From Tieghemostelium lacteum (Eukaryota), in assembly GCA_001606155.1 (NCBI GenBank), contig LODT01000016.1:385870-449869 (forward strand): a stretch of DNA of 64,000 bases, written 5' to 3'. Every line of letters begins with the position of its first letter. Position 1 is the stretch's first letter. The notes under the pieces were generated by a model. The model did no database searches, was not told the origin of the DNA, and saw only the letters and a program-made list of their open reading frames with translations. Positions 2,550 to 49,818 of the stretch are shown in pieces. Position numbers and translations under genes: made by a program.

Positions 2550-2699
2550 TTAAAGAAGGCACAAACTGTGTCAAATTACAAAACCTCAAACAACACAACA
2601 TCTAAAACACAACACTGAATATTGAATTCTTTTCTTTTAATAAAACATTAAAATTACAATATTTTTAAAGAATACCTCTTAATCAATTATTTAACAACT

Positions 2700-3460
2700 A
2701 TAATAACAAAATAAATTTATCAAAATTAAAGAATGGAGATATAACAATTCACACACCAACCAATAGGATATCAAATTCAATATTAATCAGATTGAAACCA
2801 ATAGTTCAACAAATCAAAGGTTCAATCAACAAGAATGGAGGAATCACAATATTTGGAAATATCACAATTTGAAAAGATTCAACAATGATAATACTGAATT
2901 CAATATCATAAATCAACACAATTTTCCAATTTGTAATGATTACAAACAACAAATTGAAGAAAATAACACCATTATAATGTAATCATTCACCAACCAAATC
3001 AATTATCAACAATATATTCATCATTATAGATGATCAACAATCAATCAATATCAATAATAATAATATTATTGAATTTCTAAAACCAATTATTCAATCAATT
3101 CAATTTCAACAAGAATCATCAATATCAATTCTGAATATTTATGGATATAATTTCGGAATAGAAACATCATTCAAATTGGAGATCATTCTTCAGAATGATG
3201 AATTTTCAATCAATGAAATATCATTTAAAAATATTCAACTTTCAACTTCATTTGAATTTGAAGATTCACCAACAACTATCATCATTATTTTGAATAATCA
3301 ACAAAGTAATGAATTTCAAATTTATCCTTTAATAAACAAAATTGGGATTATAATTGGAGTTTCAATTGGATCAATTTCATTGATTTCAATTTTAATTTTA
3401 TCAATTATATTCATTAAACGAAGAAGAAATAAATTGAATTCAAATTCTTTAAAATCTTAA
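2700..3460 (+). pseudogene. Tgr-like IPT/TIG receptor, copy A: a 5'-truncated fragment carrying indels (homologous to 5211..5990 of copy B)
   Basis: Nucleotide alignment to copy B by eye shows several deletions (for example near 2858, 2975 and 3160) that break the frame. Only the last 94 codons (stalk+TM+stop, ORF 3176..3460) remain open. The fragment is preceded by the repeat-unit flank at 2560-2660. Confidence 0.55.
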
Positions 3461-3673
3461 TTTATCTTTTTATCATATTTTCTTTTTTTAATTTTTTACC
3501 CCACAAAATCAATAACAACAGTTTTTATCAAATTACAAAAAACCTCAAACAACACACCACATCAAAAACAATACCACTAAAAATGAATTCATTTCATTTA
3601 ATAAATCATTGAATTTACAATATTTTTAAATTGTATATTAAAATATACAATAGAATATTGATTTAAATTTAAT

Positions 3674-5990
3674 ATGATTCAACAACATTATCTATTATTC
3701 ATCATACTTAATATTTTAATATCACCAACAATCTCTCAAATATATGATATAGATTTTGAGATCAATACCCACGACGAATTAAAATTTAATGTAATGTTTG
3801 ATGTAACCAATCCCATTAATATCACTGAAATCAAAACAGATATCACCAATCAATCATACATTCCTTCTTGTGTAAATATTAGTTTAAATTCCCAACTATG
3901 TACAATTCAACTCAATCCAACATCACAATCAGAAAAATACACTTTCAATGATGTGAATAACCCAACAACACAATTTAAAAAGTTTGTAACACTTAAAAAT
4001 AAATTCAATTTGAAAATTGAATCACAACCAAAAACAAGAAATGAAACAATTATTAAATTCTCAGGATTATATTTTCAACCATATCCACCTGATTTTTATT
4101 ATTTAACAATCACAACAACCAATTTAAATATCAACAAAACATTCAGCAGTTCAGATGGTAAAATCAAATTCACATCACCAACAACATTTCAAATTGATAT
4201 TGGTGAATCTGTTGGTTATATAAATATATCAATGATAGAGAATACTTATCTATCACCTATTTGTCAACTTATTATCAAAGTATGTATTGATCAATTCTAT
4301 TTGATTAAGATATTTTTTTAACAATTAAACCAATTTTTCAGGACCAATTATTGAATCAATTGAATTTGAATCAAATCAAATCACAATAAGAGGTGATAAC
4401 TTTGGAAATTCAATTTATTTAGAATACATAATCATTAAAATGAATTCAACAATTCAAGATCAATCATCATTCTTTGAAAACAACAACAATATCATCATTT
4501 TCAACACATCACAAATCAATGATAACTTTACAAATCAATTTCAATTTGAAATTTCAATTGCAAATATTTCAAATTCAAATTATTTCATCTTTCAAAACAG
4601 TAAATATAATTTGATTAAATAATAGATTTAGATCATTTCTAATTACCTCACTTCAAATCTAAATAGGACCAACAATTGAATCAATTAACACAATTCCTTA
4701 TAAAGGAGGTGAAGTCACAATTTCAGGAAAGAGATTGAATTCTAAACGATTTGATAATTCATCATCTGAAATTGAAATTAAAATTGGTGATTATATTTGT
4801 TCATCACCTTCAAATATCAATAATGATGATAACACATCAATCAAATGTTATCTACCTTCATCATCAAATGATAATGATGAAAATCTTGAAATTTCAATCA
4901 AAATCGATTCAATTGAGAATTATCCATCACCAATCAAATTCACATTCAATAATCCTTCAATTTCAAGATATCAACATGAATATACCAATATTGATTCCAA
5001 TAACAATAATGATGATAGATTGATTATATTTGGTGATAATTTTGATAATTCAAAAGGAATAATTGATAAATCATCATTCACATTCAATGGAATCACAATT
5101 CAACTCAATAATACATTATTCACCAACAACAACAATAACAACAAAACAACTTTGATAATACCTCTATTTCAATTATTTAACAACAACAATATCAATAATA
5201 ACAATATAGATTTATCAAAATTAAAGAATGGAGATCTAACTATTCACACACCAACCAATAAGATATCAAATTCAATATCAATCAAATTGAAACCAATAAT
5301 TCAACAAATCAAAGGTTCAATCAACAAGAATGGAGGAATCATCACAATAATTGGAAAATATTTCAATTTGAAAAGATTCAACAATGATAATACTCAATTC
5401 AATATCATAAATCAACACAATATTCCAATTTGTAATGATTACAAACAACAAATTGAAGATAATAACACCATTAGAATTTGTAATCATTCACCAACCAAAT
5501 CAATTATCAACAATTTATTCATCATTATTGATGATCAACAATCAATCAATATCAACAATAATATTATTGAATTCCAAAAACCAATTATTCAATCAATTCA
5601 ATCTCAACAGGATTCATCAATATCAATTCTGAATATTTATGGATATAATTTCGGAATTGAAACATCATTGATTCAAATTCAAATTGGAGATATCATTCTT
5701 CAGAATGATGAGTTTTCAATCAATGAAATATCATTTGAAAATATTCAACTTTCAACTTCATTTGAATTTGAAATTCACCATTATCCATCACCATTATTGT
5801 GAATAATCAAAAAAGTAATGAATTTCAAATTTATCCTTTAATAAAGAATGATGAAACAATAAACAAAATTGGAATTATAATTGGAATTTCAATTGGATCA
5901 ATTTCATTGATTTCAATTTCAATTTTATCAATTATATTCATTAAACGAAGAAGAAATAAATTGAATTCAAATTCTTTAAAATCTTATCTC
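3674..5990 (+). pseudogene. Tgr-like IPT/TIG receptor, copy B: full-length three-exon copy with two frameshifts
   Basis: Exon 1 (3674..about 4279) has a 1-nt deletion relative to copy C just before the GTATGT donor (atttgtcaactt versus attttgacaactt), so the donor phase no longer matches exon 2 (4342..4599). Exon 3 (4667..) shifts frame at about 5770-5800 (FEFE|IHHYPSPLL*). The TM segment continues in ORF 5799..6146 and the stop is lost. Confidence 0.5.
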
Positions 5991-6217
5991 TTTCTTTTTT
6001 TAATTTTTTTTCATAACCCCACAGCAACCATATCAATAACAATTTTTATCAAATTACAAAAAACCTCAAACAACACACCCATCTATTTTTATCAACACCA
6101 CATCAAAAACACTTCACTTAAAAATGAATACATTTCAAATAATTGAAAGTAAAATATTATAAATTTAAATGAACAATAGTTAGAGATATACAAATAGAAT
6201 ATTGATTTAAATTTAAT

Positions 6218-8730
6218 ATGATTCAAAATCATTATCTATTATTATTCATACTTAATATATTAATATCAACATCAATCTCACAAATTAATTCTATTAATTT
6301 TGGGGGCAATTCAGATGATGATATAAAATTTTTGGTAAATTTTAATTTAAACAATCCCATTAATATCACTGAAATCAAAACTGATTTCACAAATCAATCA
6401 TACATTCCTTCTTGTATGAATGATAGTTTAAATTCCCAAATATGTACAATTCAACTCAATCCAACATCTCAATCAGAAAAATACACATTCATTGATGTGA
6501 ATAACCCAACAATACAATTTAACAGAATTGCAAGACTTGATAATAAATTCAATTTAAAAATTGAATCACAACCAAAAACAAGAAATGAAACAATTATTAA
6601 ATTCTCAGGATTATATTTTCAACCATATCCACCTGATTTTTATTATTTAACAATCACAACAACAAATTTAAATATCAATAAAACATTCAGCAGTTCAGAT
6701 GGTAAAATCAAATTCACATCACCAACAACATTTCAAATTGATATTGGTGAATCTGTTGGTGATATTAAAATATCAATTAAAGAGCCATCTTATCAATCAC
6801 CTATTTTGACAACTTATTATCAAAGTATGTATTGATCAATTTTATTTAATTAGGATCCATATTAATAATTAAAAAAATTTACAGGACCAATTATTGAATC
6901 AATTGAATTTGAATCAAATCAAATCACAATGAGAGGTGATAATTTTGGAAATTCAATTTATTTAGATTATATAGTCATTAAAATGAATTCAACAATTCAA
7001 GATAAATCATCAATCATTGAAAACAACAACAATATTATCATTTTCAACACATCTCAAATCAATGATAACTTTACAAATCAATTTCAATTTGAAATTTCAA
7101 TTGCAAATATTTCAAATTCAAATTATTTCATCTTTCAAAACAGTAAATATAATTTGATTAAATAATAGATTGAGATCATTTCTAATTAAATTCACTTCAA
7201 TTCTAAATAGGACCAACAATTGAATCAATCAATACTATTCCTTATAAAGGAGGTGAGATCACAATTTCAGGAAAGAGATTGAATTCTAAACGATTTGATA
7301 ATTCATTATCTGAAATTGAAATTGAAATTGGTGATTATATTTGCTCATCACCTTCAAATATCAATAATGATGATAATACATCAATCAAATGTAATCTAAC
7401 TTCATCATTAAATGAAAATGATGAAAATCTTGAAATTTCAATCAAAATTGATTCAATTGAGAATAATCCATCACCAATCAAATTCACATTCAATAATCCA
7501 ACAATTTCGAGTTATCAACATGAATATACCAATATTTATTCCAATAATGATGATAAATTGATTATATTCGGTGATAATTTTGATAATTCAAAAGGAATAA
7601 TTGATAAATCATCATTCACATTCAATGGAATCACAATTCAACTCAATAATACAATTTTCACTAATAACATCAATAACAACAAAACCACATTGATTTTACC
7701 TCTAAATCAAATATTTAGCAACAACAACAACAACAATAATAATATAGATTTATCACAATTAAAGAATGGAGATTTAACAATTCACACACCAACTAACAAG
7801 ATATCAAATTCAATATCAATCAAATTGAAACCTATAATTCAACAAATCAAAGGTTCAATCAACAAGAATGGAGGAATAATCACAATAATTGGAAAATATC
7901 TCAATTTGAAAAGATTCAACAATGATAATTCTCAGTTCAATATCATAAATCAACACAATATTTCAATTTGTAATGATTACAAACAACAAATTGAAGATAA
8001 TAACACCATTTTAATTTGTAATCATTTACCAACAAATTCAGTTATCAACAATTTGTTCATTATAATTGATGATCAACAATCAATCAATATCAACAACAAC
8101 AATAATATTATTGAATTTCAAAAACCAATTATTCAATCAATTCAATTTCAACAAAAATCACCATCAATTCTGAATATTTATGGATATAATTTCGGAATTG
8201 AAACATCATTAATTCAAATTCAAATTGGAGATATCATTCTTCAGAATGATGAATTTTCAATCAATGAAATATCATTTGAAAATATTCAAATTTCAACATC
8301 ATTTGGATTTTCAGATATACCAACACTCATCACCATAATTGTGAATAATCAATCCAGTAATGAGTTTCAATTTGATACTGAAAATAGAGGAAAATCTGGT
8401 CTATCTGCTGGGATTATAATAGGAATTGTTTTGAGTATTGTTTGTGTAGCTACAATAATTTTGTTAACTATACTATATAGAAGAAGAAAGAGTAGAGAAG
8501 TTTCAAAAGATAATGTTCAACCAGAATGTGAAATGAGAAATCTACCAAATATAATTGATACTATAGACAAAAAAACTGAAACTGATAAACCAGAACGTCC
8601 ACCTCTAGATGATAAAAGGGATATAAATATTGGAAGAGGTAACTCGGCCTTCGCAATAAGAAAACCAAAACCAATTCGTGGCTCTGATATGACAAAAAAA
8701 CTAGCTCCTTCAATTGACAATTCTGCATAA
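6218..8730 (+). CDS. Tgr-like secreted single-pass receptor with four IPT/TIG-like repeats, copy C (apparently intact); exons 6218..6824, 6885..7142, 7211..8730
   Basis: Signal peptide MIQNHYLLLFILNILISTSISQ. Phase-1 GTATGT donor at 6825 with AG at 6883-6884. GTAAAT donor at 7143 with AG at 7209-7210. IPT-like blocks start P-I-I/T-E-S-I... with GG-ITI-G-NF cores. TM GLSAGIIIGIVLSIVCVATIILLTIL is followed by a basic-acidic cytoplasmic tail of about 80 aa. Confidence 0.6.
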
Positions 8731-9957: not shown

Positions 9958-12416
9958 TGATTTCTTCTTACTTTTTAGACCACTGTCATAGGATGTTGAT
10001 GTAAAATCAATTGGTTTTTTGATTTTTGATTTTTCTGGAAGTGATTGAGACATTGTTGATGTTTTGGTAAATGACCCAATTACTCTCTTGATAAAACCTG
10101 GTTTTTTATCATGTGAAATATCCAATGCTAAGGTGTTGATAAAAGGCAACTGACCAAGATTTTCATTAATTTTAGGAATTGATGTCTTTAAATGTTGCAA
10201 ATTATTGTAATTGTTATTGTTATTGTTATTATTATTATTATTATTATAATCTGCATCATCACATGGTTTATAGTTGTAGATTTTATCACAAAATAGAGTT
10301 GGTTCGACATCAATTGGGGTCATGGTAGTTGGTAATTTTAGCATAAAATCATGCGAGAAATGAATATCACCTCTGAAGGAAGTTGGAGATAAAGTATTAT
10401 ATCTGTCTCTGTCATAGGTACGTGATGAAGATGGTTCAATGGATACCATTTGTTGACTAAAGTACTCTGGAACTATTTGAGAATAAATTTCAAATTCATC
10501 ATCAGTCAACATTTGTTGAATCTGAGTAGGAGTTGGGTTGGGGATATCTGAGTTTTTTAACTTGTCGGGGATATCAGCCAAGACATTCAATATCTTTAAC
10601 TGATTTTTAGCAGCTAGAACACCAAATTCAGCGGCTTTATTGAAGAATATACGAGCTTTGGAATAACTAACATCTACACCTTTACCATCCATGTACAATT
10701 CACCAATTGCACATATGGCCATTGGCTCCTCAGCTAGAGCTGCTACAATATAGCATCGATAGGCTTCTTTGTAATTTGGGTGAATGTCAAATCTAAAACA
10801 GTTACCAACATCAAAAAATGCCTTTTTGTAGCCTAGTTTGACAGTTTTATGAAACCATTCTCTTGCAATGGTATGGTCCTTAATGACATAGTTACAGTAT
10901 TGACCTAAAGCGTAGCATGCATTTGGGTTCTTAAGATTAGCAGATTTCTTAATGAGATCAAGTCCATAGGAGATGTTCTGCGTCATTCCAACACCATGAG
11001 CTATACACATACCAAGTTCAAATATACCACCAGAGTAACCTTGAGATGCAGAGACTTTAAAGCATTTAGCTGCCAGTTCATAATTACGTTTAACAACATC
11101 TCCAAGACCAGTTCCGTAGAGTGTTCCTAAGAAGTACTGACCTTTTCCAATATCCAATTTAGCAGCTTCTAATGCCCAATACCATGTTTGTTGATAATTT
11201 GGATTCACTCTATCTTGACCAGTACCAATTCCCATATAATATTTAGCAACTTGGATCATTGCATCAACATCATTCTTTTCTCTAGCGGATTCCGTATAGA
11301 AATATAAAGCTTTAAAGTATTGCTTTTTACTGGCATATTTATCCCCTTTTTTCTTGGAATCACTTGAGTTCTCTTCATTTCTCTGTAATTGTTCTTTTTC
11401 ATTTTGATTTGCAGAGTCTAATAATTCTTTAAAAGAACCAACACTAGTTGTTTTTTTCTCATCACAGTTATCAGGTTTCAATAGATTTTCAATAGCTTTG
11501 GGATCATATTCATCTTTAGGTTCAATTTTTGGTGATGAAGGTGGTCTATTATTGTTGGTATTTTTATATGGACCATGTGCAGATCTTGGTGTTATTAATG
11601 GTGATGATCGTGATGGTGATCTTGATCTTGATGAAGAAGATCTTGATAGTGATTGAGTGACTATTAAATTAATGATTTTTGGAGTTTTGATTGGTGATTG
11701 AGATGTTGGAGCAGCATCTGATGATGGTACCATTGGAGGTGGTGGAGGAGGAATGTGGATAGAACTAGAATTTTCAGATGATTCACCATTGTTGTTTACG
11801 TTTGGTAAACGGTTAACTAGTTTTGCATAGGTTGGAATAAATGCTGACATTTCATTTGAAATTGGTAGATCAATTTCAGGATTTAGATAGTTTTCCATAT
11901 CCTCAGTAACCTTTTTTCCTTCATTTACATCAGAACTGTTATTGGGTACAGACTCCTTTTTACTTTCAGTTAATATTGGATAAGGATTTAAATAGTCTTC
12001 AAAATCTTCAACATTGGATTGTTTTTGTGGTTGTTCACTATTTTCAGTTGCACCAGAATTGTTTGTGGAAATTAACTCCTTTTCCATTTCATTTGGTACT
12101 GGTAGATCAGGATTTAAATAGTCTTCAAAATCTTCAACATTGGATTGTTTTTGAGGTTTTTCACTCTTTTCATTTCCATCAGAAATGGTATTCGACATGG
12201 ACACTTTTTCAATTACAGTTGGTATTGGTAAATTGGGATTTTGATAGTCTTCTCCAACAATCTTTAGTTCAAGCTTTTCAATTTCTTTTTCTCCAGATTT
12301 TGGATCTTTTTCTATATCAACAGACCCAATAGGATGTTGTACCACTATTGGCAATGGAGGAAGAGGCTTGTTTATAAAATTTGCATATACTGAGTTTCTA
12401 TTCGAACCTGGTGGAG

Positions 12417-13351: not shown

Positions 13352-13418
13352 CCTTTTTTGTTTGAAACATTAAAAAATCTAATTTTAAAAAAAATAGTTT
13401 AAAAAGTGTGTGAACCTC

Positions 13419-15257
13419 ATGACAACAAACAATATTACTTCTATAAAATTTGAACTTATTCAGTCGATACAGGATTTGTCACAAAGAGGATTATTTATTG
13501 GATCAAAATGGGCATCAGAACAATTGAATGGGTTGATATCTAGTAATAGTACAACAGAGGATGTAAATACAATGTCTACGGTGACTAGCTATCAACAAAC
13601 ACTAAATCAAAAGTCAAATCCAGTATTGGGGTCGGATAATCATATTAAATATCTTTTAGCAAAGAATTACTTTGATCTTAAAGAGTATCGGAGATGTGCG
13701 GATATACTGTCAAGTGAATACACTAGTACCTGCCAATTGAATCTCTTTTTGAGATCATATGCATTGTATTTGGCTATAGAGAAAAGAAAAGAAGAAGAAA
13801 TCATTGAGAATGCATCTTTGATAAACGAGCAACAACAAAAGATTAATGAACAACAGGCACAACAAGCACAACAACAGTCACAACAACCATCGAATATACC
13901 TCAACTAAAACTTGATCAACAACAATCACAGGAATTTAATGACCTTTTTAAAGTATATAATAATCGATACCTAAATAGTAATAGTAGTAGTAATAGTGTT
14001 ACAGTCGAACCATTAGATGCATTTAATTTGTATCTGTATGCACTGTTACTAAAGAAACAAAATAACTTTTTAAAATCTAAACAAGTACTATTACAATCTA
14101 TTCAGTTGTATCCAGGTAATTGGTCTGCATGGTACGATTTGGCATCTCTATGTACTGATTATGATCAGGTAATGAAACTAGTACTACCCAACCATTTTAT
14201 TAAAGATTTCTTTTTGGCACATGTTAGTTTAGAATTTCAGAAAAACAATGAGGCTTTACAAATCTATCAGTCACTATCAAAAGTATTTTCAGCATCAACT
14301 TATATACTATCCCAAACTGCAATTGGTAATTACAATCTAAGAGGTATGTTAACAAACAATTTTCTTTATAAATTAAATATTAATCTATTATTTGAAACAG
14401 CATTTGATACAGGTGAAGAATTATTTGAAAAATTAATGGAAATTGAACCTAATAGATTAGAAAATATTGATATATATAGTAATATATTATATGTTAGAGA
14501 TAAAAAGGCGGCATTGAGTATGTTGGCACATAAGGCTATGAATATTGAAAAATATTGCCCTGAAACTTGTTGTATTATTGGAAATTATTATAGTTTGAAA
14601 TCTGAACATGAAAAGGCGATTTTGTATTTCCAAAGAGCTCTTAAACTGAATGATAAATACCTCTCTGCATGGACATTGATTGGTCATGAATTTCTAGAGA
14701 TTAAAAATGTACCATCTGCAATCAGAGCCTATAGAAAAGCTGTGGATATCAATCCTAGAGACTACCGTGCATGGTATGGTCTTGGACAGACCTATGTGTT
14801 ATTGAAACTTCCACTCTATTCACTTCACTATTTCAAGAAGGCTACAACACTCAGACCTTATGACCCTAGAATGTGGTGTGCCACAGCAGGGTGCTACGAA
14901 CACATTGATAAGTTACCAGAGGCTATAAAGTGCTATGAAAGAGCTGAAGAGAACTTTGACCATGAACGTGTTGCACAGGCTAAATTGGCAAAACTCTATC
15001 AAGAGATTCAAAATTACGATAAAGCTGCTTACTATTATAAGAAGAATCTTCAGCATTATGATTCAGAGAAGATTGATGGTCAGGAGGTTATTGATGCTTT
15101 ACTCTATCTGGCTAATCATTGTAGAAATACCAACAAATTATCACAATCTGAGAAATATTGTCTGAGATTACTAGATTATGCAGGTCCTGAGAAAGAAGAG
15201 GCAAAATCAATACTCAGAGAAATACATAATAAATCCAAATCTATAAATAATTTTTAA
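13419..15257 (+). CDS. anapc8: Anaphase-promoting complex subunit 8 (Cdc23), TPR protein
   Basis: N-terminal APC8 domain (RGLFIGSKWASEQL). Consecutive TPRs at the C-terminus (AWTLIGHEFLEIKN, AIRAYRKAVDINPRDYRAWYGLGQTY, YFKKATTLRPYDPRMW). Single open frame. The first ATG is at 13419; the ORF track opens at an upstream GTG. Confidence 0.75.
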   Translation: MTTNNITSIKFELIQSIQDLSQRGLFIGSKWASEQLNGLISSNSTTEDVNTMSTVTSYQQTLNQKSNPVLGSDNHIKYLLAKNYFDLKEYRRCADILSSEYTSTCQLNLFLRSYALYLAIEKRKEEEIIENASLINEQQQKINEQQAQQAQQQSQQPSNIPQLKLDQQQSQEFNDLFKVYNNRYLNSNSSSNSVTVEPLDAFNLYLYALLLKKQNNFLKSKQVLLQSIQLYPGNWSAWYDLASLCTDYDQVMKLVLPNHFIKDFFLAHVSLEFQKNNEALQIYQSLSKVFSASTYILSQTAIGNYNLRGMLTNNFLYKLNINLLFETAFDTGEELFEKLMEIEPNRLENIDIYSNILYVRDKKAALSMLAHKAMNIEKYCPETCCIIGNYYSLKSEHEKAILYFQRALKLNDKYLSAWTLIGHEFLEIKNVPSAIRAYRKAVDINPRDYRAWYGLGQTYVLLKLPLYSLHYFKKATTLRPYDPRMWCATAGCYEHIDKLPEAIKCYERAEENFDHERVAQAKLAKLYQEIQNYDKAAYYYKKNLQHYDSEKIDGQEVIDALLYLANHCRNTNKLSQSEKYCLRLLDYAGPEKEEAKSILREIHNKSKSINNF

Positions 15258-15405
15258 AATTAGAATTTTCCAATTTTGGTATATATGTGTGGTTTATTAA
15301 AAATGAGGTAAATTTAAAATATTAAAAATTGTAGTTTAAATTATTATTATTATTATTTTATTTATGTCTGTTAGAATCATAATTCTATAATTATTCATGA
15401 AAGCT

Positions 15406-15903
15406 TCAAATCTTGGGAACCCAGTAATTATCTTTTGATAAATAATGACCAAGGTAGCAACTGTTGACAATTGCCATAAGCTGATCATATGAACCTCTAA
15501 ATGGTCTTTCAAAAACCCCAAATCTCGATAAACTGAGGAAACAATGTTCAATTAGTATTCTAATTTTAGAAATTTTAGATTTATATGTTAACTCTTCTTC
15601 AGTGAATACACGTTGTTTATATTTTTTAAGAGGGCATATTGTTTGGCCACTGTCAGAGATATATGCTTTATCTCCTAAAAGTGCCTCATCAGCATCTAGA
15701 TTCTTAAGAACCCCGCTTTCGTTCAGAATAACCAGGCCATGAGTTGAACCCCAATATGGTCCTGATACATGAATAACATGGCCATCGAGGTTACATATTA
15801 CTTGTATCTTTAACCCATGAACCTTATGTTTTCCTATTAAGAATTTTATAAAATTAATATTTGTTTTTTTAATAAAACACTGTGATGTATCAAATAAAAA
15901 CAT
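15406..15903 (-). mobile_element. Harbinger/PIF-type DDE_Tnp_4 transposase remnant (C-terminal two-thirds of the catalytic domain only)
   Basis: Motifs KVHGLKIQVICNLDGHVIHV..WGSTHG..LGDKAYISD..IEHCFLSLSRFGVFERPF match the DDE_4 family. The first catalytic Asp block is missing. The upstream frame is closed by TAA within 5 codons. The flanks are AT-rich with no host-gene context. Confidence 0.55.
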
Positions 15904-16079
15904 ACCAGAATATTAATTAATTAGAAGCAAAACTTTATAGGCTAGTTTGATAAATAATTGATAGTTATCTAGATAATGATAGGAATAATTTAGTACTAAA
16001 AAACTAGTAGTTTTTTATATAGTTTATTTTGTTTATATAGTAGTTAATTTGGAAAATCAATCTACTACCTTGTTGTTAC

Positions 16080-16915
16080 TCCATCAGAAATATCTGCTCT
16101 ACCTACTCTTCCAAATCTAGAAGAACTCACATTCAATCAAGATGAAGGTGATAACGATATATCAGATGATAAACATTTGCCATCAAATGTTACCTCTATT
16201 GGTATCGTCGTGACAAGTTACCCTACTCAATATAACATTTTTGTGAAGATGGTTACAAAGGTAGTCTATATAAATACGATGTTGCCAAGATGTATGCATC
16301 AATCTTAGGAAACCAAAGATTCAAGATACCAATTAAAAGAGGTACTTTCACCAAATACACCAATGAAGAATTTAAACAGCTTCCATTTATTCATGTTGGT
16401 ATTTATAGGGCGGTATTCACTGATACACATAAATACTTCAAGATCAACAACAGAGGCAACTACTATACCCATTACGATTTGAACCTAGCTGTAATGCCAA
16501 ATTAGTAAAAGAAATAGACAATGGTGAGAATAAAGTTACAATCAAAGATCATGGATATCATCATCTCTAATTCAAGAGTTATGAAGGAAATACAGTAGGT
16601 CAACAAAGTATCAATTCATTTAAATATTATGATACGCATTATGCCAGATTCATACCATTTATTTTATCAAGAGGTAGAAAGATGACTGGATCTATCATTG
16701 CACCTTTTATTGATGACATTGTTAGAGTTCACACGGATGGATTTTACTCAAAGAAAGAGCTGGATATCACTCAAGATACAAGTAAAAGAGGTGTTAAATC
16801 CCTTGATAATGTCAAGTTAGGTTTTGAGCCTGGTAATCTCAAGTATGAAGGTTTCTGTGAATATGGTGAAATACACAAGATGAAAAAGGTTAATGATGAT
16901 TTATTTACTAAATAA
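16080..16915 (+). mobile_element. Decayed fragment of a protein-primed family-B DNA polymerase (Maverick/Polinton-like or linear-plasmid-like), broken into at least 3 frames
   Basis: YDVAKMYASILGNQRFKIPIKRG resembles pPolB motif A (DxxSLYPS..LP.G.P). Downstream lie an NSFKYY block (motif-B-like) and VRVHTDGFYS (a degenerate motif-C YxDTDS), in the order A-B-C. ORFs 16290..16505 and 16682..16915 and the frames between them are separated by stops and shifts. Confidence 0.35.
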
Positions 16916-17089
16916 ACACTATTTATTTATAAAATTGCAATTTGCTTTTAAATAAAAAAAAATAGGGGTGGACACTATATCAGTTTAGTAGTACAATTGA
17001 ATATATACAAAACAATTTAAAAAAATGACTTTACATATATACATATATATATATTTATTTTTTTTTTTTCATAAATTGTGGATAATATT

Positions 17090-17820
17090 ATGAGTGACAA
17101 CAATAATAATATAATAGTATGGGTTGAATTGGATGGTGAGCCAAATAAACCTATTAAAGTTATCAGTAAAGAAGATATAGCAGATGTTGAAGATTACATC
17201 CTTATTCACCCAAGATTTAAAGACAGATTCACATTATTCAATTTGGTACAAGTAGAAAGAACAATTGAAGGAGTTGAGACTGAGGGTGGTGTTCTTGATA
17301 CAGATACAATATTAGATAGTTTAGAACCAACATATCATAAAGGAGTTGGACCAGATCAAATTAGATTGCGAATCAAATTGGTACAACCACCTCAAACAAG
17401 TAGTTCTCACAAGAGAAAGGGTATGGATGATAATGATGAAACTTTGTCTCAGAAGTATGAATCATTGAAAAAATATACTAGAATTTTAGAGATGGATAAC
17501 GAGGCAAAAGATAAGGTAATTATAACCAAATTTTTGGAAAAAACACATATTTAGGGTAGGTTATTAACAGCATCAATGTATTTCAGAGAATAAGAGAATT
17601 TGAACTGACCTCTTCACCAATTCCATCACCATCAAACAGTATTATAAATACTTTAGCTAACATCTCAACCCCTATTTCAAACAACCCCAATAATAATAAT
17701 CTTACAACTAATACTTCTCAACCCTCACAATCCACACCTATCAAATGTAAAGGAACACATAAAGGTGAACCTTGTAGAATCAATTGCACCAAATTTACAC
17801 CACGTAATGAGATTCAGTAA
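17090..17820 (+). CDS. Hypothetical protein with C-terminal Cys-rich tail; exons 17090..17515 and 17587..17820 (intron 17516..17586)
   Basis: ATG at 17090 (MSDNNNNIIVWVELDG...). GTAATT donor at 17516. Of three candidate acceptors only ttcAG at 17585-17586 yields a long open continuation (RIREFELTSSPIPSP...CKGTHKGEPCRINCTKFTPRNEIQ*). Confidence 0.45.
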
Positions 17821-18120
17821 TTGTTTTTGTTGATAAAGAGGATCTATTAGCCGTGACCAGATCAGTAACATTGTGAATGATCTTTCTAGAAATACTGATG
17901 TTGGTAATATCCCAAGATAGCATTGAGCCATTTTATAAAGAACTGGAAACTGATCCTTTTGGTATACCAAAAATCTTGAATAGTTAACCTATCTATTTCA
18001 TTTTTGGACAGTTTTAGGTTTAGATAATCTTCAATTTCGTCCCTTTCTTCATCCTCCTCGTCATTCACAATATAAAGTAGATGGTCACTGTCCTCTGTTT
18101 CGACATTATCTTGATTATTT
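17725..18120 (-). mobile_element. hAT-family transposase C-terminal dimerisation (hATC) domain remnant with a 1-nt frameshift
   Basis: Frame 1 reads ...DEIEDYLNLKLSKNEIDRLTIQDFW. Frame 2 reads YQKDQFPVLYKMAQCYLGILPTSVFLERSFTMLLIWSRLIDP..LLNLITW, matching the hATC consensus (WW...fP.L..lA...L.ip.ss..ER.FS). The frames switch at about 17950. No BED/DDE portion lies upstream. Confidence 0.5.
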
Positions 18121-18395
18121 AAAATTTTATTTTTCTATAAAGCAGAATTGAATTAGAAAACAATAGAAATCTCTAAATTACAGACTCTTCTGACTGAACT
18201 GTTTCAAAACAATCACGAAACATTACAAGAGGTTAAATATTGCTATGCAGCTGCAGTTTCTTTAAAGTACTTTAACCAATTGAAATTATTCTTAAGTGAT
18301 CTCTTCCAACATACCAAAAACATTCAGAACCATCCTTCACGAACTTACAAAACATTTACATTGAAAACAAAATGTATATATAAAACTAGTTATTT

Positions 18396-20306
18396 TTATT
18401 TTTTAACATGTTTAGCTTCGAATCTCTCAATTATATCTTTACAGAAACAATCTTCAGCTGGAACCCATGTAGCTTGGTCGATACTGTATCCTTCCCATTT
18501 AATTAGATATTGAACTTTACCACCAACAATGGATTTCTTTAGGATATCTTCGACATTATATAATTCCTCAGAATCATTTTCAAGTTCCTCAACAATATTT
18601 ATAAAATTTTCCTTGTTCTTACTGGGAATTGATGTTGATTGTTTTTGTTGTTTTTGTGGTTGTTTCTTTGGTTGTTGTTGTGGTTCAAAATGAGTTTTAA
18701 CTTTCTTTTTAGGTCTGGAAGTTGTATCTTTACCCAAAGGTTTATCAACTACAACAACAATATCTTCAGAATCATCTGTTTTATCTATATCCAACATTAT
18801 TTCATCATCTACTTCATCTTCAGTATCATCCAAATCAATTGGAGTTAATTTTCTCTTTTTAGATTCAGCTTTCTTTTTCTTTTTAATCTTTTTCTCTTGT
18901 CTCTCTAGTTTTCTTTTCTTTTTCTCTTCCTTCTTTTTTAGTTTCTCTTGTATTTGTTTTTGTTTTTCTTTTTCCTTCTGTTGCGCTTTTACTTTGTTTA
19001 CTTTTTCTTTTTCTTTTGATACTGATTTTTTTGGTTTGGGTTTAGGTTCCCAAGTCAATAGTAAAGTGGGTCCTGTATAAACAAAATCCTGAATAAATTT
19101 CTTTTTGGAAGCTATAAACTTGAATTGTTTAAATGCTTCATATATAGTTGCCTTATTACGACTGTTGATAGCCATGAGTTCCATCTGTAGTTGTTGTTCT
19201 TGAATTTGAGGGGAAATTGGAACTTGTACAGTAGGTTGCTGTACCATAACAGGCACTGCATCTGATGATCCTACCTTTAGATTTCTCAAAGGCGGTGATT
19301 TATATTGACGGAACTCCAAATTCACAGGTATAGGAGCAACAAGATTAATAGGAGGAAGTTTATAAATAGTAGGATGTTGTAGAGGTTGTGGACTAATATG
19401 TTGTGTAGGAAGTGTAGGTGAAACTTGTTTAGGTGTTGTTGGTTGAGAAGTTCTCAATGCATTTCTCTGGTACTGTTGAAGAATCATAATCATATTATCA
19501 TTAATCATCTTTGATTTCTTGCCCGACAATAACTGAATATCATCAAAAACCTTCTTTTGAATAGAATACTGATGCCTCAAAACATTGATTTGAACATCAC
19601 TTATAAGTTTCTTATAATGCAGGCATCTAGTAAACAACTCCTTTTTCAGAGATGCTAGGACTTTTATATCAGTCGTATCCTTTACATTCCAACTTCTGTA
19701 CTGTTCAATTCTAGGTAGAGTCTGAACAATAGTCTCAATCATACCACTAAAACTAATGGCATTGGGAGGTGGTGCATGACTATTAAAATGTAGATTCAAC
19801 TCTCTAATCTGATTTAAAAGTGTCTCGAACTTGTACTTGTAGGATATAATCTTATCTTTCTCTTTCACAAGACTCAGATGAGTCTGATCTATATAATACT
19901 TTTTAACAACCTCCCATGATCGTATTGGTAGTTGTAGACTAATCTGTCTATTACCTTTCGCAATCTCTTGTGTAATGTATCTACCAATGAGTATTAAATC
20001 ATTAAATGTCGAATGCATTTCAATACGTCTTTCTATACTATTCTTCTCATAGTACAAACTAAGGTTCTTCTTATATCCTTCAATTTCAATATTTATATTA
20101 TTACTGATATAATCCACAACCTGTTTCATTATACTATAAATCTCAGAGAATTCAACTAAAGATGTTCCACTAAGTGAACTTGGAGATGATAATAAAAAGT
20201 GTTGAAGTTTTTCCGAATACAACTTTACATCAGTCAATGATTGATAGCATTGACTAATAAATTGGTGATATGGATTTGTACTGTTACTAGGTACTGTAGA
20301 TGTAGG

Positions 20307-20374
<68 letters not shown>

Positions 20375-21301
20375 GAGGTATTTGTGGTTTTTGTTGTTGA
20401 TAAGGTACCTGTTGTTGCTGCGGGTGTTTTTGAGGAATTGATGTTGTTGTACCACTATTATTAAGTTGATTAGGTCTATTTATAATATTTAAAGCATTTT
20501 CCATTGATCTTTTACAATTTGTACACTGTGCTACTAGTTTCTCATTGAGTAATTGCGCGAATACAAGATAACCAGCTTTACAATATTCACAAGTAGAGAA
20601 TATTAAAACCTCTTTACATCTTATACATCTATCCGTTATTTTTCCACTAAAAAATGCCTCTGAATTCGAGTCGCCACTGATAATACACCCTACTCCACAT
20701 CCAGGACAATTAAATGTATGTTTAATCTTTTGATTATACTTTTTCCTATTTTCCTCTGTATTTACATTATTCTTGAGTTTTTATATAAAATTAGATGTCT
20801 ATCATACAATATGAGAGAATAGATGTTACAATTACTTACAAATGCTTTTGTAACCTTTTCAAAGATTCTCTTGTTAATCTCCGATGCCTTATCGATATTG
20901 AAAATATTCCATAACTTGACATGTGCTCTATTGATTGCAGTGTTACTCGCTAGTGAACTGACTTGTAGTATCTCATAGGCCTCTTTGTCAGGGTCAAGTT
21001 TACTGATTAGTTTCTCAAGTTGTTCTTGTGTTTTGGTATTTACATGATCAATTTCAAAACAAGTTCTGTCATGCTGTTGCTGAAGAAGTGCTTGTTTTTG
21101 TTGACGTGTAAAATTTGAGTAGTTTAATTGACCTGGTACAGGTGCATTTGAGGATAAAGACGGTATTGGTGTGCTAGTGGTAGGTGTAGGAGTAGATGCA
21201 CTGCTAACACCCGTAGGTTTTGGAACTTTTTGATTATTTACATTTTGAGAACCAGCACTACCATATTTAAATGGCCAGTTAGCAGCTCTATTATTATTCA
21301 T
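18396..21301 (-). CDS. Chromodomain protein with poly-Gln tract and N-terminal Cys-rich module; exons 20840..21301 and 18396..20753 (intron 20754..20839)
   Basis: C-terminal chromodomain (EELYNVEDILKKSIVGGKVQYLIKWEGYSIDQATWVPAED). The frame upstream of the annotated Met at 20504 stays open to 20753 (...FNCPGCGVGCIISGD..CIRCK..CEYCKAGY..CTNCKRS). A GTAAGT donor follows ...EKVTKAF in ORF 20762..21337, and cagAG restores the frame. ATG at 21301 (MNNNRAANW). Confidence 0.55.
20306..20376. repeat. (TTG)n on the + strand, equal to (CAA)n coding, about 23 units; encodes a poly-Gln tract in the chromodomain gene
   Basis: Seen directly. Confidence 0.9.
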
Positions 21302-46631: not shown

Positions 46632-47981
46632 TTAATCTAATTTAACCTTCCATTTCTTCTTTTGTACTTTTTCAATGACATACAAAAGAATTCTATAAAA
46701 GAAAAATGAGACAATATAACCAGCAGTAACACCAAATGAGATATTTATATATTTTGTCTCAATGAAAGGGCATGCTTTAAAATTGTATTCATAAGTAACC
46801 AATTCTGATGGGATTGGTTGGTCTTGCTCGGTGTTTCTCACACTGAGATTACTTTGTATCGATTTTTTAATTTCAAAAAGACCTGTGTAACCACCAAAAT
46901 CACCCATCATTGACCTGATGGTATACTCAGTAGTGTAGTTATTTGAGTGTTTAAATATACAACCGTCATGATCATGACCATTGAAAATAAAGAGAGGTTT
47001 CAACTCATCCAGTATATATTGACTGGTCTCTTTGGTGAGCATTGATTGTTCTTTTACAAATCCATCGTCTGTTGATATTATAAAATAAGTCTCAGTACAC
47101 ATACTTTTATATTTTGGATGACCATTGGGAAATAGTATCTGATCATTTACCATATTATTTTGGTTTCTCTTTTGTCCTCTTTTTCCTAATTGTATATCTC
47201 TTGTTTCCTCTTGAATTATAGTCTCTTGTAAAACCTCTTCATCGCTATTGTACTGTTTGTGCAGAGGAATATGAGTGATTAAAATCAACGGAGATCCTGT
47301 TTGTTCTTTTAGTTCTTTAAGATCTCTTAGATGCTGCCAACTGTCATTATAAAGTTGTTCATGTTTTGATCGGTCCAAATTAATGGAGTTTACAATACCA
47401 ATTAAATGACCATTGATAAAAAACTTGTCATTTACTTTCCCAAAAGATTCTTCAAATCTATCTACCTTTTTAGGAGATGCTTCATGTGCATATCCAATAT
47501 CATGATTACCAGTGATATTGTACATTTGATATTGACCCTCACCTAAATATTTATCCAATGGTGAGAATATTCTCTTATATCTCTGTACTCTATTTACAAA
47601 TTCGCCATCATTACAGTGTTGTGATGAAAACAAGTCACCTAGAGTAAACAAGTAACCAGGTCTTAAATAGTAGGCAATATTCGAAACGATATGCTTGAAA
47701 TAATTGTCATTAAACCATATATTATATTCTCCTTTTTTCCCTTGTGTCTTTATTCTCCAGTCACCTTCCATCTGAGGATCACCCAACATTATTAAATGTT
47801 CAATAGAATCCACTCTCTTACTGCTACTATTGCTCTGATTATTCAATAAATCATCTTTGAAATCCCATGTACAAAAGTACATATAATTGTAAATGTATAT
47901 ATAAAATATCAATAATAAACATCCAACTACTATATAGGCTCTATTTATAGTTGTCTGTTTAAACATTATATATAATACCAC
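46632..47981 (-). CDS. Calcineurin-like metallophosphoesterase of the Cdc1/Ted1/MPPE1 (PGAP5) family
   Basis: N-terminal TM, metallophosphatase motifs (GDPQMEG, GDLF, GNHDIG, ITHIPL, NGHDHDG), C-terminal TM. This architecture is typical of the ER GPI-remodelling phosphoesterases. Confidence 0.65.
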   Translation of the reverse strand: MVLYIMFKQTTINRAYIVVGCLLLIFYIYIYNYMYFCTWDFKDDLLNNQSNSSSKRVDSIEHLIMLGDPQMEGDWRIKTQGKKGEYNIWFNDNYFKHIVSNIAYYLRPGYLFTLGDLFSSQHCNDGEFVNRVQRYKRIFSPLDKYLGEGQYQMYNITGNHDIGYAHEASPKKVDRFEESFGKVNDKFFINGHLIGIVNSINLDRSKHEQLYNDSWQHLRDLKELKEQTGSPLILITHIPLHKQYNSDEEVLQETIIQEETRDIQLGKRGQKRNQNNMVNDQILFPNGHPKYKSMCTETYFIISTDDGFVKEQSMLTKETSQYILDELKPLFIFNGHDHDGCIFKHSNNYTTEYTIRSMMGDFGGYTGLFEIKKSIQSNLSVRNTEQDQPIPSELVTYEYNFKACPFIETKYINISFGVTAGYIVSFFFYRILLYVIEKVQKKKWKVKLD

Positions 47982-48846
47982 CTCTCAATATGTGATTAGG
48001 TGAATGTCTTAGAATTAAAAAATTATAATTAAAAATGATGATGATTAAAAAAAACAAAAATTTTAAAATATTAATAATTGTATTTATATTATTTATTTAA
48101 AATAGAATGATTTTTTTTAATTAGATTTAACAGAATCATAGTATATTGCCACATTATATTTATTATTTATTTATCTAAATTTAATACTATTATAGCATCA
48201 ATAGTATTTATAAATGGGTCAAAACATTATATTCAATATATATTTTATTTCAATTTATAAATAAAAATAGATTAGATTTTTATTCACTGTGATTATATTT
48301 TTTAAAAGGCATATTGTTTTATGTGACATTTTAACTAGTTTTTAATAAAATTGGTTCAAATTTAGATGCAGACGGGCCTATATCAGACAGTGGAAAAACA
48401 TAATTCCTTTTAAAAAATATAAACATAGTGGATTCACTAATAAACTCTAAAGTTTCTAGAATACTAATTGAACATTTTTTCCTAAGTTTATCGAGAATTT
48501 GGTAACCATTTAGAGGTTCATATAACCAGTTTATGCCAATTTTCAACAGTTGCTAGGTTTTAGTCATTATTATTAAAAGACATTTGTTGGGTTCCTAAGT
48601 TTTGAAGGTTTAATGAATAATTATAGAAATTTGTTTCTAACAGAATTTATAATTATATAGAATAAAATAAATATTAATTTCAATTTAAATATTTTTAAAA
48701 TAAATATTAATTTCAATTTAAAAATTTTTGTTTTTTTTACTTCATTTTAAACGAAAAAATAAATTTTTTGTGCAGTAACTTTCATTTCATCATCTATTCC
48801 CCACATCGATTTATATATATACAAATATATATATATTTTTTATTTA

Positions 48847-49818
48847 TTAAAAATGATTTCTATGAATAGATGGATTCTGATAATATTTAAGAGCTTGTTG
48901 ATAAGTTGACGATAATTTTGAGTCTACAATTTCACAAGATTCCAAATATTTTTGAATATACATTTTATGAAGTGGATATGTTTTCTTGTGTAGAATTGCA
49001 ATTTGAAAACCGTCATAATAAGTACGGCTAAGTGCCATTATTCCATTACTAATCTGCTCAGATTCCTTTAATAATAAATCTACATTCTTTAAAACTCTTT
49101 TAATTTGTTCCTCTGTCTTCATAGGCATAGTTGGTATCATACTATCCAATTCATGTGCCTTCTGTATACGTTCAGCCAACACCTTATCACGACAAATACA
49201 ACTCTCCAAACAATTTACAGACCACTTCTCACGAATCACCTGTTCTCTAGCATCTCTATATCCCTTGCTAGTTGAAATATCGTTATAGAAATGGTACTGA
49301 ATAGATATTTCTTCTCCCTCCTGAATATCCCTAATGGCAATCAATATAAAGGCATTCAAATCCGTTATAAACTTATTAGTTGCATTATTTCTACAGTCGT
49401 GGTTAACCCTTGCTAAACGAATTCCTAAGTTATCTCCAGACTCCTCTCTATAAAATGAATTTAAATCCCATTTCTCTTGAAGTGTACCTTCGTGTGGCAT
49501 AAGTGCATTGATGAATGGTAGTGGCACATCTTCAATCTTTCTATATCCTCTGTCTACCATGATTCTAGTGTGCTTTGGTAAAAGTCTTTTGGAGAATACT
49601 CCAAGACCTTTTCCATCGACTGTCTCTCTGATTTCCCAATCAATGTCTTCTTCGCAGATTTGTTCTTTACACCACTGTTTATGGTGTTGTCCTACTGCAC
49701 CCCAATCATTAACTTGACAATCTCTAGAACAATATGATCTCTTTTTACATCCTCCACACATTTTAACTTTATCTGCTTCCAAAGGAATTAAACAGTATGC
49801 ACAATGTCTTGATACCAT
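48847..49818 (-). CDS. SET and MYND domain protein (SMYD-like lysine methyltransferase)
   Basis: N-terminal MYND finger (CAYC...CGGC..RSYCSRDCQ..DW..HK.WC). SET core (ARVNHDCRNNA...EGEEISIQY) with a post-SET Cys cluster. Confidence 0.7.
   Translation of the reverse strand: MVSRHCAYCLIPLEADKVKMCGGCKKRSYCSRDCQVNDWGAVGQHHKQWCKEQICEEDIDWEIRETVDGKGLGVFSKRLLPKHTRIMVDRGYRKIEDVPLPFINALMPHEGTLQEKWDLNSFYREESGDNLGIRLARVNHDCRNNATNKFITDLNAFILIAIRDIQEGEEISIQYHFYNDISTSKGYRDAREQVIREKWSVNCLESCICRDKVLAERIQKAHELDSMIPTMPMKTEEQIKRVLKNVDLLLKESEQISNGIMALSRTYYDGFQIAILHKKTYPLHKMYIQKYLESCEIVDSKLSSTYQQALKYYQNPSIHRNHF

What the first reader, a model, noticed from the sequence alone, without database searches (positions are those of the whole stretch)
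15330..18170. Transposon graveyard with three different DNA-element classes in 3 kb, including a candidate Maverick/Polinton-like polymerase fragment
Within 2.8 kb lie three remnants. (i) A Harbinger/PIF DDE_4 transposase lacking its N-terminal third (15406..15903, minus). (ii) A plus-strand region (16080..16915) whose broken frames carry pPolB-like motif A (YDVAKMYASIL...IPIKRG, compare DVNSLYPAQM...LPYGEP of phi29-type enzymes), a motif-B-like NSFKYY and a motif-C-like VHTDGFY, in the right order. (iii) A hAT dimerisation domain split by a single frameshift (17725..18120, minus). Protein-primed PolB genes in a eukaryotic nucleus point to Maverick/Polinton elements or integrated linear plasmids. 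I am not aware that either is well described for dictyostelids.
Basis: partly seen in the sequence, partly recalled or inferred. Interest (0 to 1): 0.65.

Follow-up and report, generated by a model that had tools for sequence, protein, structure and literature searches.

The report
Dead transposon and virus relics
A 3-kb gap between two ordinary genes of the social amoeba Tieghemostelium lacteum holds broken leftovers of three mobile DNA elements, one of them a piece of the DNA polymerase of a Polinton/Maverick-type virus-like element; this kind of relic is real but already known from related amoebae.

Summary
All three remnants are real. The window is Tieghemostelium lacteum: annotated protein DLAC_03380 matches it at 100%.

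(i) 15406..15903(-) is a complete DDE_Tnp_4 domain (E 3e-25) with no N-terminal region. A second, more decayed copy lies at about 48.3-48.7 kb.

[quoted passage not shown] It matches a family of 600-710 aa proteins (E down to 3e-28). A model of one member folds like phi29 polymerase (Foldseek E 6e-12). In 14-19 kb contigs these genes sit beside an rve+chromo integrase, an A32-type packaging ATPase and a double-jelly-roll capsid gene, which is the Polinton/Maverick gene set. About 330 N-terminal codons are also missing, and there is one frameshift plus in-frame stops.

(iii) 17725..18068(-) is a frameshifted hAT dimerisation domain (E 8e-7).

No integrase, capsid gene or terminal repeats lie nearby. 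Polinton-type polymerases of other dictyostelids are already in published trees (Yutin 2013, 2015). This is a dead relic of a known kind and of low interest.

The parts
15313..15903 (-). PIF/Harbinger relic. The ORF at 15406..15903 encodes a complete DDE_Tnp_4 catalytic domain (D5, D78, E119 by eye). About 35-90 nt of 3' terminal sequence follow. The N-terminal DNA-binding part and a Myb-like second gene are absent.
   Evidence: Pfam E 3.1e-25. 74.5% nucleotide identity over 353 nt to window 48698-48379. Clear homology ends near 15370, at ...CTGTTAGAA.
15904..16235 (.). Unassigned AT-rich filler between the Harbinger relic and the polymerase relic. A plus-strand ORF piece at 16072-16305 looks leucine-rich-repeat-like but has no family hit.
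   Evidence: No Pfam hit (protein 3). No match to the polymerase family in any frame. One 18-nt tandem duplication at 16014-16051.
16236..16915 (+). Pseudogene fragment of a Polinton/Maverick-type pPolB. Block 1, 16248-16490, carries motif A (YKYDVAKMYASIL). Stop codons lie near 16497-16505, followed by a frameshift. Block 2, about 16586-16903, carries the pre-motif-C region and motif C (RVHTDGF) and has an in-frame stop near 16569. The native stop is at 16913-16915. About 330 N-terminal codons are missing, as are about 60 internal codons that include motif B.
17078..17820 (+). Orphan ORF found only in T. lacteum: 158 aa, plus a possible second exon at 17584-17817. The annotated model DLAC_03380 splices it to the last 53 codons of the polymerase relic. 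It is not a recognisable transposon or virus gene.
   Evidence: The only relatives are DLAC_02708, 00505, 11577, 04140 and 00483. No Pfam hit.
17725..18068 (-). hAT relic consisting only of the C-terminal dimerisation domain, split by one frameshift near 17950-17970. The catalytic domain is absent.
   Evidence: Pfam PF05699 E 8.2e-7 on the joined frames. Translations.
48280..48700 (+). Second, more decayed copy of the same Harbinger family. It lies outside the finding's coordinates.
   Evidence: blastn 74.5% over 353 nt. tblastn with the DDE ORF gives 46% over 92 aa, E 9e-11. Alignment.

Best explanation
The 3.1-kb spacer between the convergent host genes ANAPC8/Cdc23 (13410..15257, +) and a chromodomain protein (18396..20504, -) is a dump of dead mobile DNA. 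[quoted passage not shown]

The polymerase fragment descends from a Polinton/Maverick-type integrating virus-like element. Intact elements of this family encode a polymerase of about 600-700 aa, with an N-terminal terminal-protein-like domain, an OTU-like cysteine protease domain and a phi29-like polymerase domain. They also encode a retroviral-type integrase with a chromodomain, an A32/FtsK-type packaging ATPase and a double-jelly-roll capsid protein.

By inference from what is established for Polintons, such an element replicates its linear DNA by protein priming and is inserted into the chromosome by the integrase. In this window everything except the palm and thumb part of the polymerase gene has been lost. 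That remaining part is inactivated by a frameshift, stop codons and the deletion of motif B, so nothing here can function today.

What is shown: homology, family identity, the gene context of relatives, and the inactivating lesions. What is inferred: the original integration event and the order of decay.
For: Window identity and homologues: (DLAC_03380 at 100%; A. subglobosum 50%; metagenomic proteins 34-44%, two with PF03175).

Family size and length: (70 hits, mostly 560-730 aa).

pPolB identity: Pfam PF03175 at 28.9 and 28.2 bits against a 25.8 cut-off for P0007 and P0004. Phi29 polymerase is the only PDB hit of the family profile, with motifs A, B and C aligned. The AlphaFold model has pLDDT 89, and its top Foldseek hits are nine phi29 polymerase chains at E 6e-12 to 4e-10.

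Element type: an rve+Chromo integrase lies divergently upstream of the polymerase in L001, L004, L005 and L006. L004 and L005 also carry a Pox_A32 ATPase (62.7 bits in L005), and L005 a DJR-like capsid domain at 32 bits against a 27 cut-off. Three IMG/VR viral contigs carry the family.

Lesions.

No other Polinton gene in the 64-kb window.

Harbinger and hAT relics.

Host flanks.
Against: The fragment alone does not reach any Pfam or PHROGs model. The class assignment therefore rests on homologues, most of them from uncultured samples with unknown hosts.

No terminal inverted repeats, target-site duplication, integrase, capsid or ATPase remnant flanks the fragment. That the relic arrived as part of a whole element is inferred.

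DLAC_00505 begins with 12 residues that are an alternative-frame reading of window 16393-16428, followed by a paralogue of the downstream ORF. The fragment may therefore have reached this site by segmental duplication of an already dead piece, not by integration here.
Confidence: 0.85

Rival explanations
1. The polymerase fragment comes from a linear mitochondrial or cytoplasmic plasmid, or another capsid-less pPolB replicon, whose DNA was transferred to the nucleus. It would then not derive from a Polinton/Maverick-type element.
For: pPolB genes are also carried by such plasmids. Published trees mix plasmid, mavirus and Polinton polymerases (PMC4642659). Nothing but the polymerase piece survives in the window.
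Against: In every informative contig with a close relative, the polymerase lies next to an rve+chromo integrase, and the longer contigs add packaging ATPase and DJR capsid genes. No plasmid-type neighbour, such as a phage-type RNA polymerase, was seen.
Confidence: 0.04
2. The fragment is part of a T. lacteum-specific composite repeat, made of the polymerase relic plus the downstream orphan ORF. This repeat spread by segmental duplication or as a non-autonomous element after the polymerase was already dead. The local copy would then never have been a Polinton insertion site.
For: The N-terminus of DLAC_00505 (MLVFIGRYSLIH) is identical to an out-of-frame reading of window 16393-16428, and it continues into a 79%-identical paralogue of ORF 17078. 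The ORF family has at least six T. lacteum members and none elsewhere.
Against: The evidence is only 12 residues from an automatic gene model. The T. lacteum genome could not be read with these tools. This reading concerns how the relic reached this site and is compatible with an ultimate Polinton origin.
Confidence: 0.3
3. The region is a functional gene. DLAC_03380 would be a real protein that has exapted the polymerase C-terminus.
For: An annotated protein uses 16682-16840 spliced to 17090-17817. ORF 17078..17554 is intact.
Against: The model uses only 53 codons of the polymerase thumb, without motifs A or B. Its last exon reads the reverse strand of the hAT relic (17725-17820). The polymerase frame upstream is broken. 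There is no domain hit and no homologue outside the species. The model looks like an ab initio chimera.
Confidence: 0.05
4. The pPolB-like motifs are chance resemblances in AT-rich sequence.
For: No direct Pfam or PHROGs hit for the fragment.
Against: E 2.9e-28 against 5.8 billion proteins. Two collinear blocks at E 8e-17 and 2e-13.
Confidence: 0.01

Closest known systems
Polinton/Maverick self-synthesising elements (polintoviruses), including the predicted dictyostelid Polintons used in published pPolB and integrase trees (Yutin et al. 2013, PMC3671162; 2015, PMC4642659)
   Same: The fragment belongs to a pPolB family whose members are linked to an rve integrase with a chromodomain, an A32-type ATPase and a DJR capsid gene. 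The host is a dictyostelid, and an A. subglobosum nuclear copy is 50% identical.
   Different: Only 0.68 kb of one gene survives. There are no TIRs, TSD, integrase or capsid genes at the locus. The family's motif C reads HTD where the canonical sequence is DTD.
Mavirus-type virophage pPolB (TP-vOTU-palm architecture with the exonuclease domain largely lost; Krupovic et al. 2024, PMC11071308)
   Different: The capsid protein of L005 shows no sequence match to any solved capsid, mavirus included. No direct comparison with mavirus proteins was possible. The N-terminal domains are absent from the window copy.
phi29 DNA polymerase (PDB 2PY5, 1XHX)
   Same: It is the best structural and the only sequence-profile match of the family. 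Motifs A, B and C align.
   Different: About 15% identity. Phi29 has an active exonuclease domain and a separate terminal protein.
PIF/Harbinger and hAT DNA transposons
   Same: DDE_Tnp_4 domain at E 3e-25. hAT dimerisation domain at E 8e-7.
   Different: Both are truncated. The Harbinger relic has no N-terminal region or Myb-like gene. The hAT relic has no catalytic domain. No TIRs or TSDs were defined.

Membership tests
[quoted passage not shown] | Motif A (DxxSLYP) with the catalytic Asp | tested here: met
   Window YKYDVAKMYASIL (about 16269-16307) aligns to family Y-K-Y-D-x-x-S-x-Y-P and to phi29 VFDVNSLYPAQM.
[quoted passage not shown] | Motif B (KxxxNSxYG) | tested here: not met
It is present in relatives (K..LN.LWG, equivalent to phi29 KLMLNSLYG). 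It lies in the roughly 60-codon segment missing between 16490 and 16604.
[quoted passage not shown] | Motif C (YxDTDS) | tested here: met
   Window RVHTDGF aligns to phi29 YCDTDSI. The whole family has H-T-D, with T and D invariant.
[quoted passage not shown] | Significant match to the curated family model | tested here: inconclusive
   The window fragment has no hit at E<=10. Homologues P0007 (28.9 bits) and P0004 (28.2 bits) exceed the 25.8-bit cut-off, while P0003 (24.9) and P0001 (17.6) fall below it.
[quoted passage not shown] | phi29-like polymerase fold | tested here: met
   Tested on relative P0007, not on the relic itself. pLDDT is 89.4, and Foldseek against phi29 polymerase gives E 5.6e-12 over about 440 columns.
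[quoted passage not shown] | 3'-5' exonuclease domain with Exo I-III motifs | tested here: inconclusive
   That part of the gene is absent from the window. In relatives no conserved acidic Exo motifs appear among the invariant columns. This was not examined structurally in detail.
Polinton/Maverick element | RVE (retroviral-type) integrase in the same element | tested here: not met
   tblastn with four integrases finds only the chromodomain of host gene 18396..20504 (E 2e-5 to 0.03) and no rve core in the 64 kb. The feature is met in relatives L001 and L004-L006.
Polinton/Maverick element | Capsid and packaging module (DJR major capsid protein, penton, A32/FtsK ATPase, adenain-like protease) | tested here: not met
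   No match in the window. In relatives the ATPase scores 62.7 bits and the DJR domain 32 bits. The protease is suggested only by an H...D...Q...C motif in L005 4484-4888 and has no significant hit.
Polinton/Maverick element | Terminal inverted repeats and a 5-6 bp target-site duplication | tested here: not met
   Only short AT-rich inverted matches of 70-93% occur in 15200-18400. None brackets the relic.
PIF/Harbinger transposon | DDE_Tnp_4 transposase domain | tested here: met
   E 3.1e-25, profile positions 2-153 of 158. D5, D78 and E119 are visible by eye.
PIF/Harbinger transposon | Full-length transposase with an N-terminal DNA-binding region, a Myb-like second ORF, TIRs and a 3-bp TSD | tested here: not met
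   The ORF starts at the domain boundary with a stop 4 codons upstream. Nothing recognisable lies in 15904-16235. One terminus is approximated near 15370 by comparison with copy 2. No TIR pair was found.
hAT transposon | C-terminal hAT dimerisation domain (PF05699) | tested here: met
   E 8.2e-7 after joining two frames.
hAT transposon | RNase-H-like DDE catalytic domain, TIRs and an 8-bp TSD | tested here: not met
   There is no ORF or homology in 18069-18395(-), which ends at the neighbouring gene's stop. No TIRs were found.
Mitochondrial/cytoplasmic linear plasmid | pPolB linked to plasmid genes such as a phage-type RNA polymerase, with no integrase or capsid genes | tested here: not met
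   Contigs of relatives carry integrase, ATPase and capsid genes instead.

The most novel reading that the evidence does not exclude
T. lacteum, and dictyostelids more widely, may carry a distinct lineage of short, exonuclease-poor, mavirus-like Polinton elements with an HTD motif C. Intact members of this lineage are now seen only in AT-rich environmental contigs. The repeated unit 'polymerase relic + orphan ORF 17078' could be a lineage-specific derivative that still moves or is retained, for example as part of an anti-giant-virus defence analogous to endogenous mavirus in Cafeteria.
Probability: 0.08. Interest if true: 0.5.

Novelty: new member of a known kind. Interest (0 to 1): 0.2.

Why it matters
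The relic adds T. lacteum to the dictyostelids that carry traces of Polinton/Maverick-type elements. It also shows that the annotated protein DLAC_03380 is probably a chimera of a polymerase relic, an orphan ORF and the reverse strand of a hAT relic.

Published transposon surveys of this very compact genome that I could find cover only retrotransposons (PMC5006619). Harbinger, hAT and Polinton relics are therefore a small addition to its mobilome. Beyond that the finding is ordinary genomic debris and opens no new question by itself.

Tried and rejected
- Direct Pfam and PHROGs scans of the repaired polymerase translation gave no hit. Identification needed homologues.
- Exact look-ups of DLAC_03380, DLAC_02708 and DLAC_00505 failed because the T. 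lacteum assembly is not in the contig collection. The second copy and any genome-wide copies could not be read.
- tblastn of all genes from four Polinton-like contigs against the window found nothing except the polymerase and a generic chromodomain.
- A profile search with the ORF 17078 family against 1.8 billion representatives found only T. lacteum paralogues and one spurious repeat protein.
- The phage collection (tblastn with P0007) gave no match.
- The capsid and protease candidates of L005 gave nothing significant against PDB sequences, so mavirus-versus-Polinton affiliation of the capsid is unresolved.
- An unannotated ORF downstream of the A. subglobosum copy (L003, about 11300-11770), which I suspected to be a penton protein, had no hit in Pfam, PHROGs or PDB. 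I dropped the idea.
- I considered that the neighbouring chromodomain gene might be a leftover of the element's integrase. I rejected this because it has no rve core, sits on the wrong side and strand, and has generic chromodomain similarity.
- No tRNA gene lies in the window, so there is no tRNA-targeting context.
Full report
**Source and setting.** A conceptual translation of 16245..16915 matches the annotated protein DLAC_03380 of Tieghemostelium (Dictyostelium) lacteum at 100%. The window is therefore nuclear DNA of this dictyostelid, with 29% G+C.

The finding lies in a 3.1-kb spacer between two convergent host genes. On the left, 13410..15257(+) is ANAPC8/Cdc23 (Pfam E 7e-56). On the right, 18396..20504(-) is a 702-aa protein with a C-terminal chromodomain (E 4e-14). 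The rest of the window is gene-dense and contains no tRNA gene.

**Remnant (i), PIF/Harbinger.**
- The ORF at 15406..15903(-) (165 aa) matches Pfam DDE_Tnp_4 at E 3.1e-25 over profile positions 2-153 of 158. The catalytic domain is therefore complete, and D5, D78 and E119 are visible by eye.
- The ORF begins exactly at the domain boundary, with a stop four codons upstream. No frame of the upstream 350 nt carries anything recognisable.
- A second, more decayed copy lies at about 48.3-48.7 kb on the plus strand. It is 74.5% identical over 353 nt, and tblastn gives E 9e-11.
- Aligning the two copies shows homology through the stop codon to about 15370 (...CTGTTAGAA), which approximates one element end. 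This is a multi-copy family, now dead at both sites.

**Remnant (iii), hAT.** Joining the two minus-strand frames over 17725..18068 gives Pfam Dimer_Tnp_hAT at E 8.2e-7. Nothing of the catalytic domain remains upstream before the neighbouring gene's stop.

**Remnant (ii), the polymerase fragment.** The repaired translation has no Pfam or PHROGs hit of its own, but it has clear homologues:
- an A. subglobosum hypothetical protein (50% identity, E 2.9e-28);
- two metagenomic proteins carrying PF03175 (44% and 34% identity).

A profile search then recovered 70 proteins, mostly 560-730 aa. Nearly all come from metagenomes, and one is from the fungus Diversispora epigaea.

The family is pPolB by three independent tests:
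- P0007 and P0004 exceed the PF03175 gathering score.
- The family profile hits only phi29 DNA polymerase in the PDB, with motifs A, B and C aligned.
- An AlphaFold model of P0007 (pLDDT 89.4) has phi29 polymerase chains as its nine best Foldseek matches (E 5.6e-12 to 4e-10). RB69 and archaeal family-B polymerases follow.

**Anatomy of the window copy.**
- P0007 residues 329-407 map to 16248-16490 in frame +3 (52% identity, E 8e-17).
- Residues 507-588 map to 16604-16876 in frame +2 (36% identity, E 2e-13).
- Relative to intact proteins, the copy lacks about 330 N-terminal codons and about 60 internal codons.
- It also has at least one frameshift and in-frame stops.
- The proposed motif B, 'NSFKYY', is wrong. 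It aligns to KNDNYYETN of relatives. The true motif B (K..LN.LWG) lies within the deleted segment.

**What kind of element it came from.** In contigs L001, L004, L005 and L006 the polymerase gene sits next to a divergently oriented integrase with rve and chromo domains. L004 and L005 add a Pox_A32 packaging ATPase (62.7 bits in L005). L005 also carries a 534-aa protein with a DJR-like capsid domain (32 bits against a 27-bit cut-off). In L005 a 134-aa ORF carries an adenain-like H...D...Q...C pattern, but this is by eye only and has no significant hit. L004 carries a DUF5906 helicase-type gene and L006 a Herpes_ori_bp-type gene upstream of the integrase. Three IMG/VR viral contigs of 15.7-22 kb also carry the family.

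Polymerase, RVE integrase, capsid gene and ATPase together form the signature gene set of Polintons/Mavericks.

The alternative origin from a linear plasmid is not supported by any neighbour gene. In the window itself, tblastn with all genes of these contigs finds only the polymerase blocks and the generic chromodomain of the right-hand host gene. No convincing inverted repeats bracket the relic. The class assignment therefore holds for the gene's ancestry, not for an element still present here.

**Architecture of the intact family.** None of this survives in the window.
- An Asn-x-Cys and a His are invariant.
- This reproduces the TP-vOTU-polymerase organisation published for eukaryotic pPolBs. 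Together with the short length and the lack of visible exonuclease motifs, it resembles the mavirus-type variant (PMC11071308).
- The L005 capsid protein shows no sequence match to solved capsids. Affiliation with mavirus rather than canonical Polintons is left open.

**The downstream ORF and the gene model.** ORF 17078..17554 (+) belongs to a family found only in T. lacteum: DLAC_03380, 02708, 00505, 11577, 04140 and 00483. It has no domain hit.

DLAC_03380 splices the last 53 codons of the polymerase relic to this ORF. It ends by reading the reverse strand of the hAT relic, so it looks like a chimeric ab initio model.

DLAC_00505 starts with 12 residues identical to an out-of-frame reading of 16393-16428, inside the polymerase relic, and continues into a 79%-identical paralogue of the ORF. 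The unit 'relic + ORF' therefore probably exists at a second locus. The local copy may have arrived by duplication of already dead DNA. I could not read that locus.

**Comparison with what is known.** pPolB, and in part integrase, ATPase and helicase sequences, from D. fasciculatum and P. pallidum appear as 'predicted polintons and related elements' in Yutin et al. 2013. A. subglobosum is added in the pPolB tree of Yutin et al. 2015. The A. subglobosum nuclear locus I fetched carries a longer, frameshifted copy (L003 9292-10849) among unrelated host genes, so it is not syntenic with the T. lacteum site. The published T. lacteum transposon survey I found covers retrotransposons only.

**Verdict.** The object is a non-functional relic of a known kind and of low interest.

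Noticed in passing
window 48280-48700 (+): A second, more degraded copy of the same Harbinger-type element lies between genes 46632..47981(-) and 48847..49818(-). It is 74.5% identical in nucleotides to 15313-15661 and sits in a 19.5% G+C stretch.
   Followed up: partly
window 17078-17820 (+): An intact 158-aa ORF belongs to an orphan family restricted to T. lacteum, with six annotated members and no domain hits. The annotated protein DLAC_03380 fuses it to the polymerase relic and reads the antisense strand of the hAT relic at its end, so it is probably a chimeric gene model.
   Followed up: yes
window 16393-16428 versus DLAC_00505 (P0075): The first 12 residues of DLAC_00505 equal an out-of-frame translation of the polymerase relic. 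This implies a near-identical second copy of the relic plus ORF unit on another contig. The locus could not be fetched.
   Followed up: partly
window 18396-20504 (-): This 702-aa Q-rich and K-rich protein has a C-terminal chromodomain that is the best window match to the chromodomains of the Polinton-type integrases (E 2e-5). It has no rve core. I judged it a host gene with a generic chromodomain.
   Followed up: partly
L003 9292-10849 and 11300-11770 (A. subglobosum DF837576.1): L003 carries a longer frameshifted pPolB pseudogene that includes part of the OTU-proximal region. Only 10001-10738 is annotated, as a 245-aa hypothetical protein. An unannotated 156-aa ORF downstream has a capsid-like look but no hit in Pfam, PHROGs or PDB.
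   Followed up: partly
[not shown]
   Followed up: partly
L004, L005, L006 (metagenomic contigs, 23-28% G+C): These AT-rich contigs of 14-19 kb share an integrase(-)/pPolB(+) pair. L004 and L006 also have a helicase-type gene upstream. L004 and L005 carry an A32 ATPase, and L005 a DJR capsid gene. They look like near-complete Polinton or mavirus-like genomes of unknown host.
   Followed up: partly
window 16072-16235 (+): A short ORF piece (…LPTLPNLEELTFNQD…LPSNVTSIGI…) resembles leucine-rich or FNIP-type repeats. It abuts the 5' breakpoint of the polymerase relic and has no family hit.
   Followed up: no
window 2000-8000: This stretch has very low G+C (22-27%), strongly negative GC skew (-0.3 to -0.4) and positive AT skew over 6 kb. 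It carries several long plus-strand ORFs and is probably low-complexity coding sequence.
   Followed up: no
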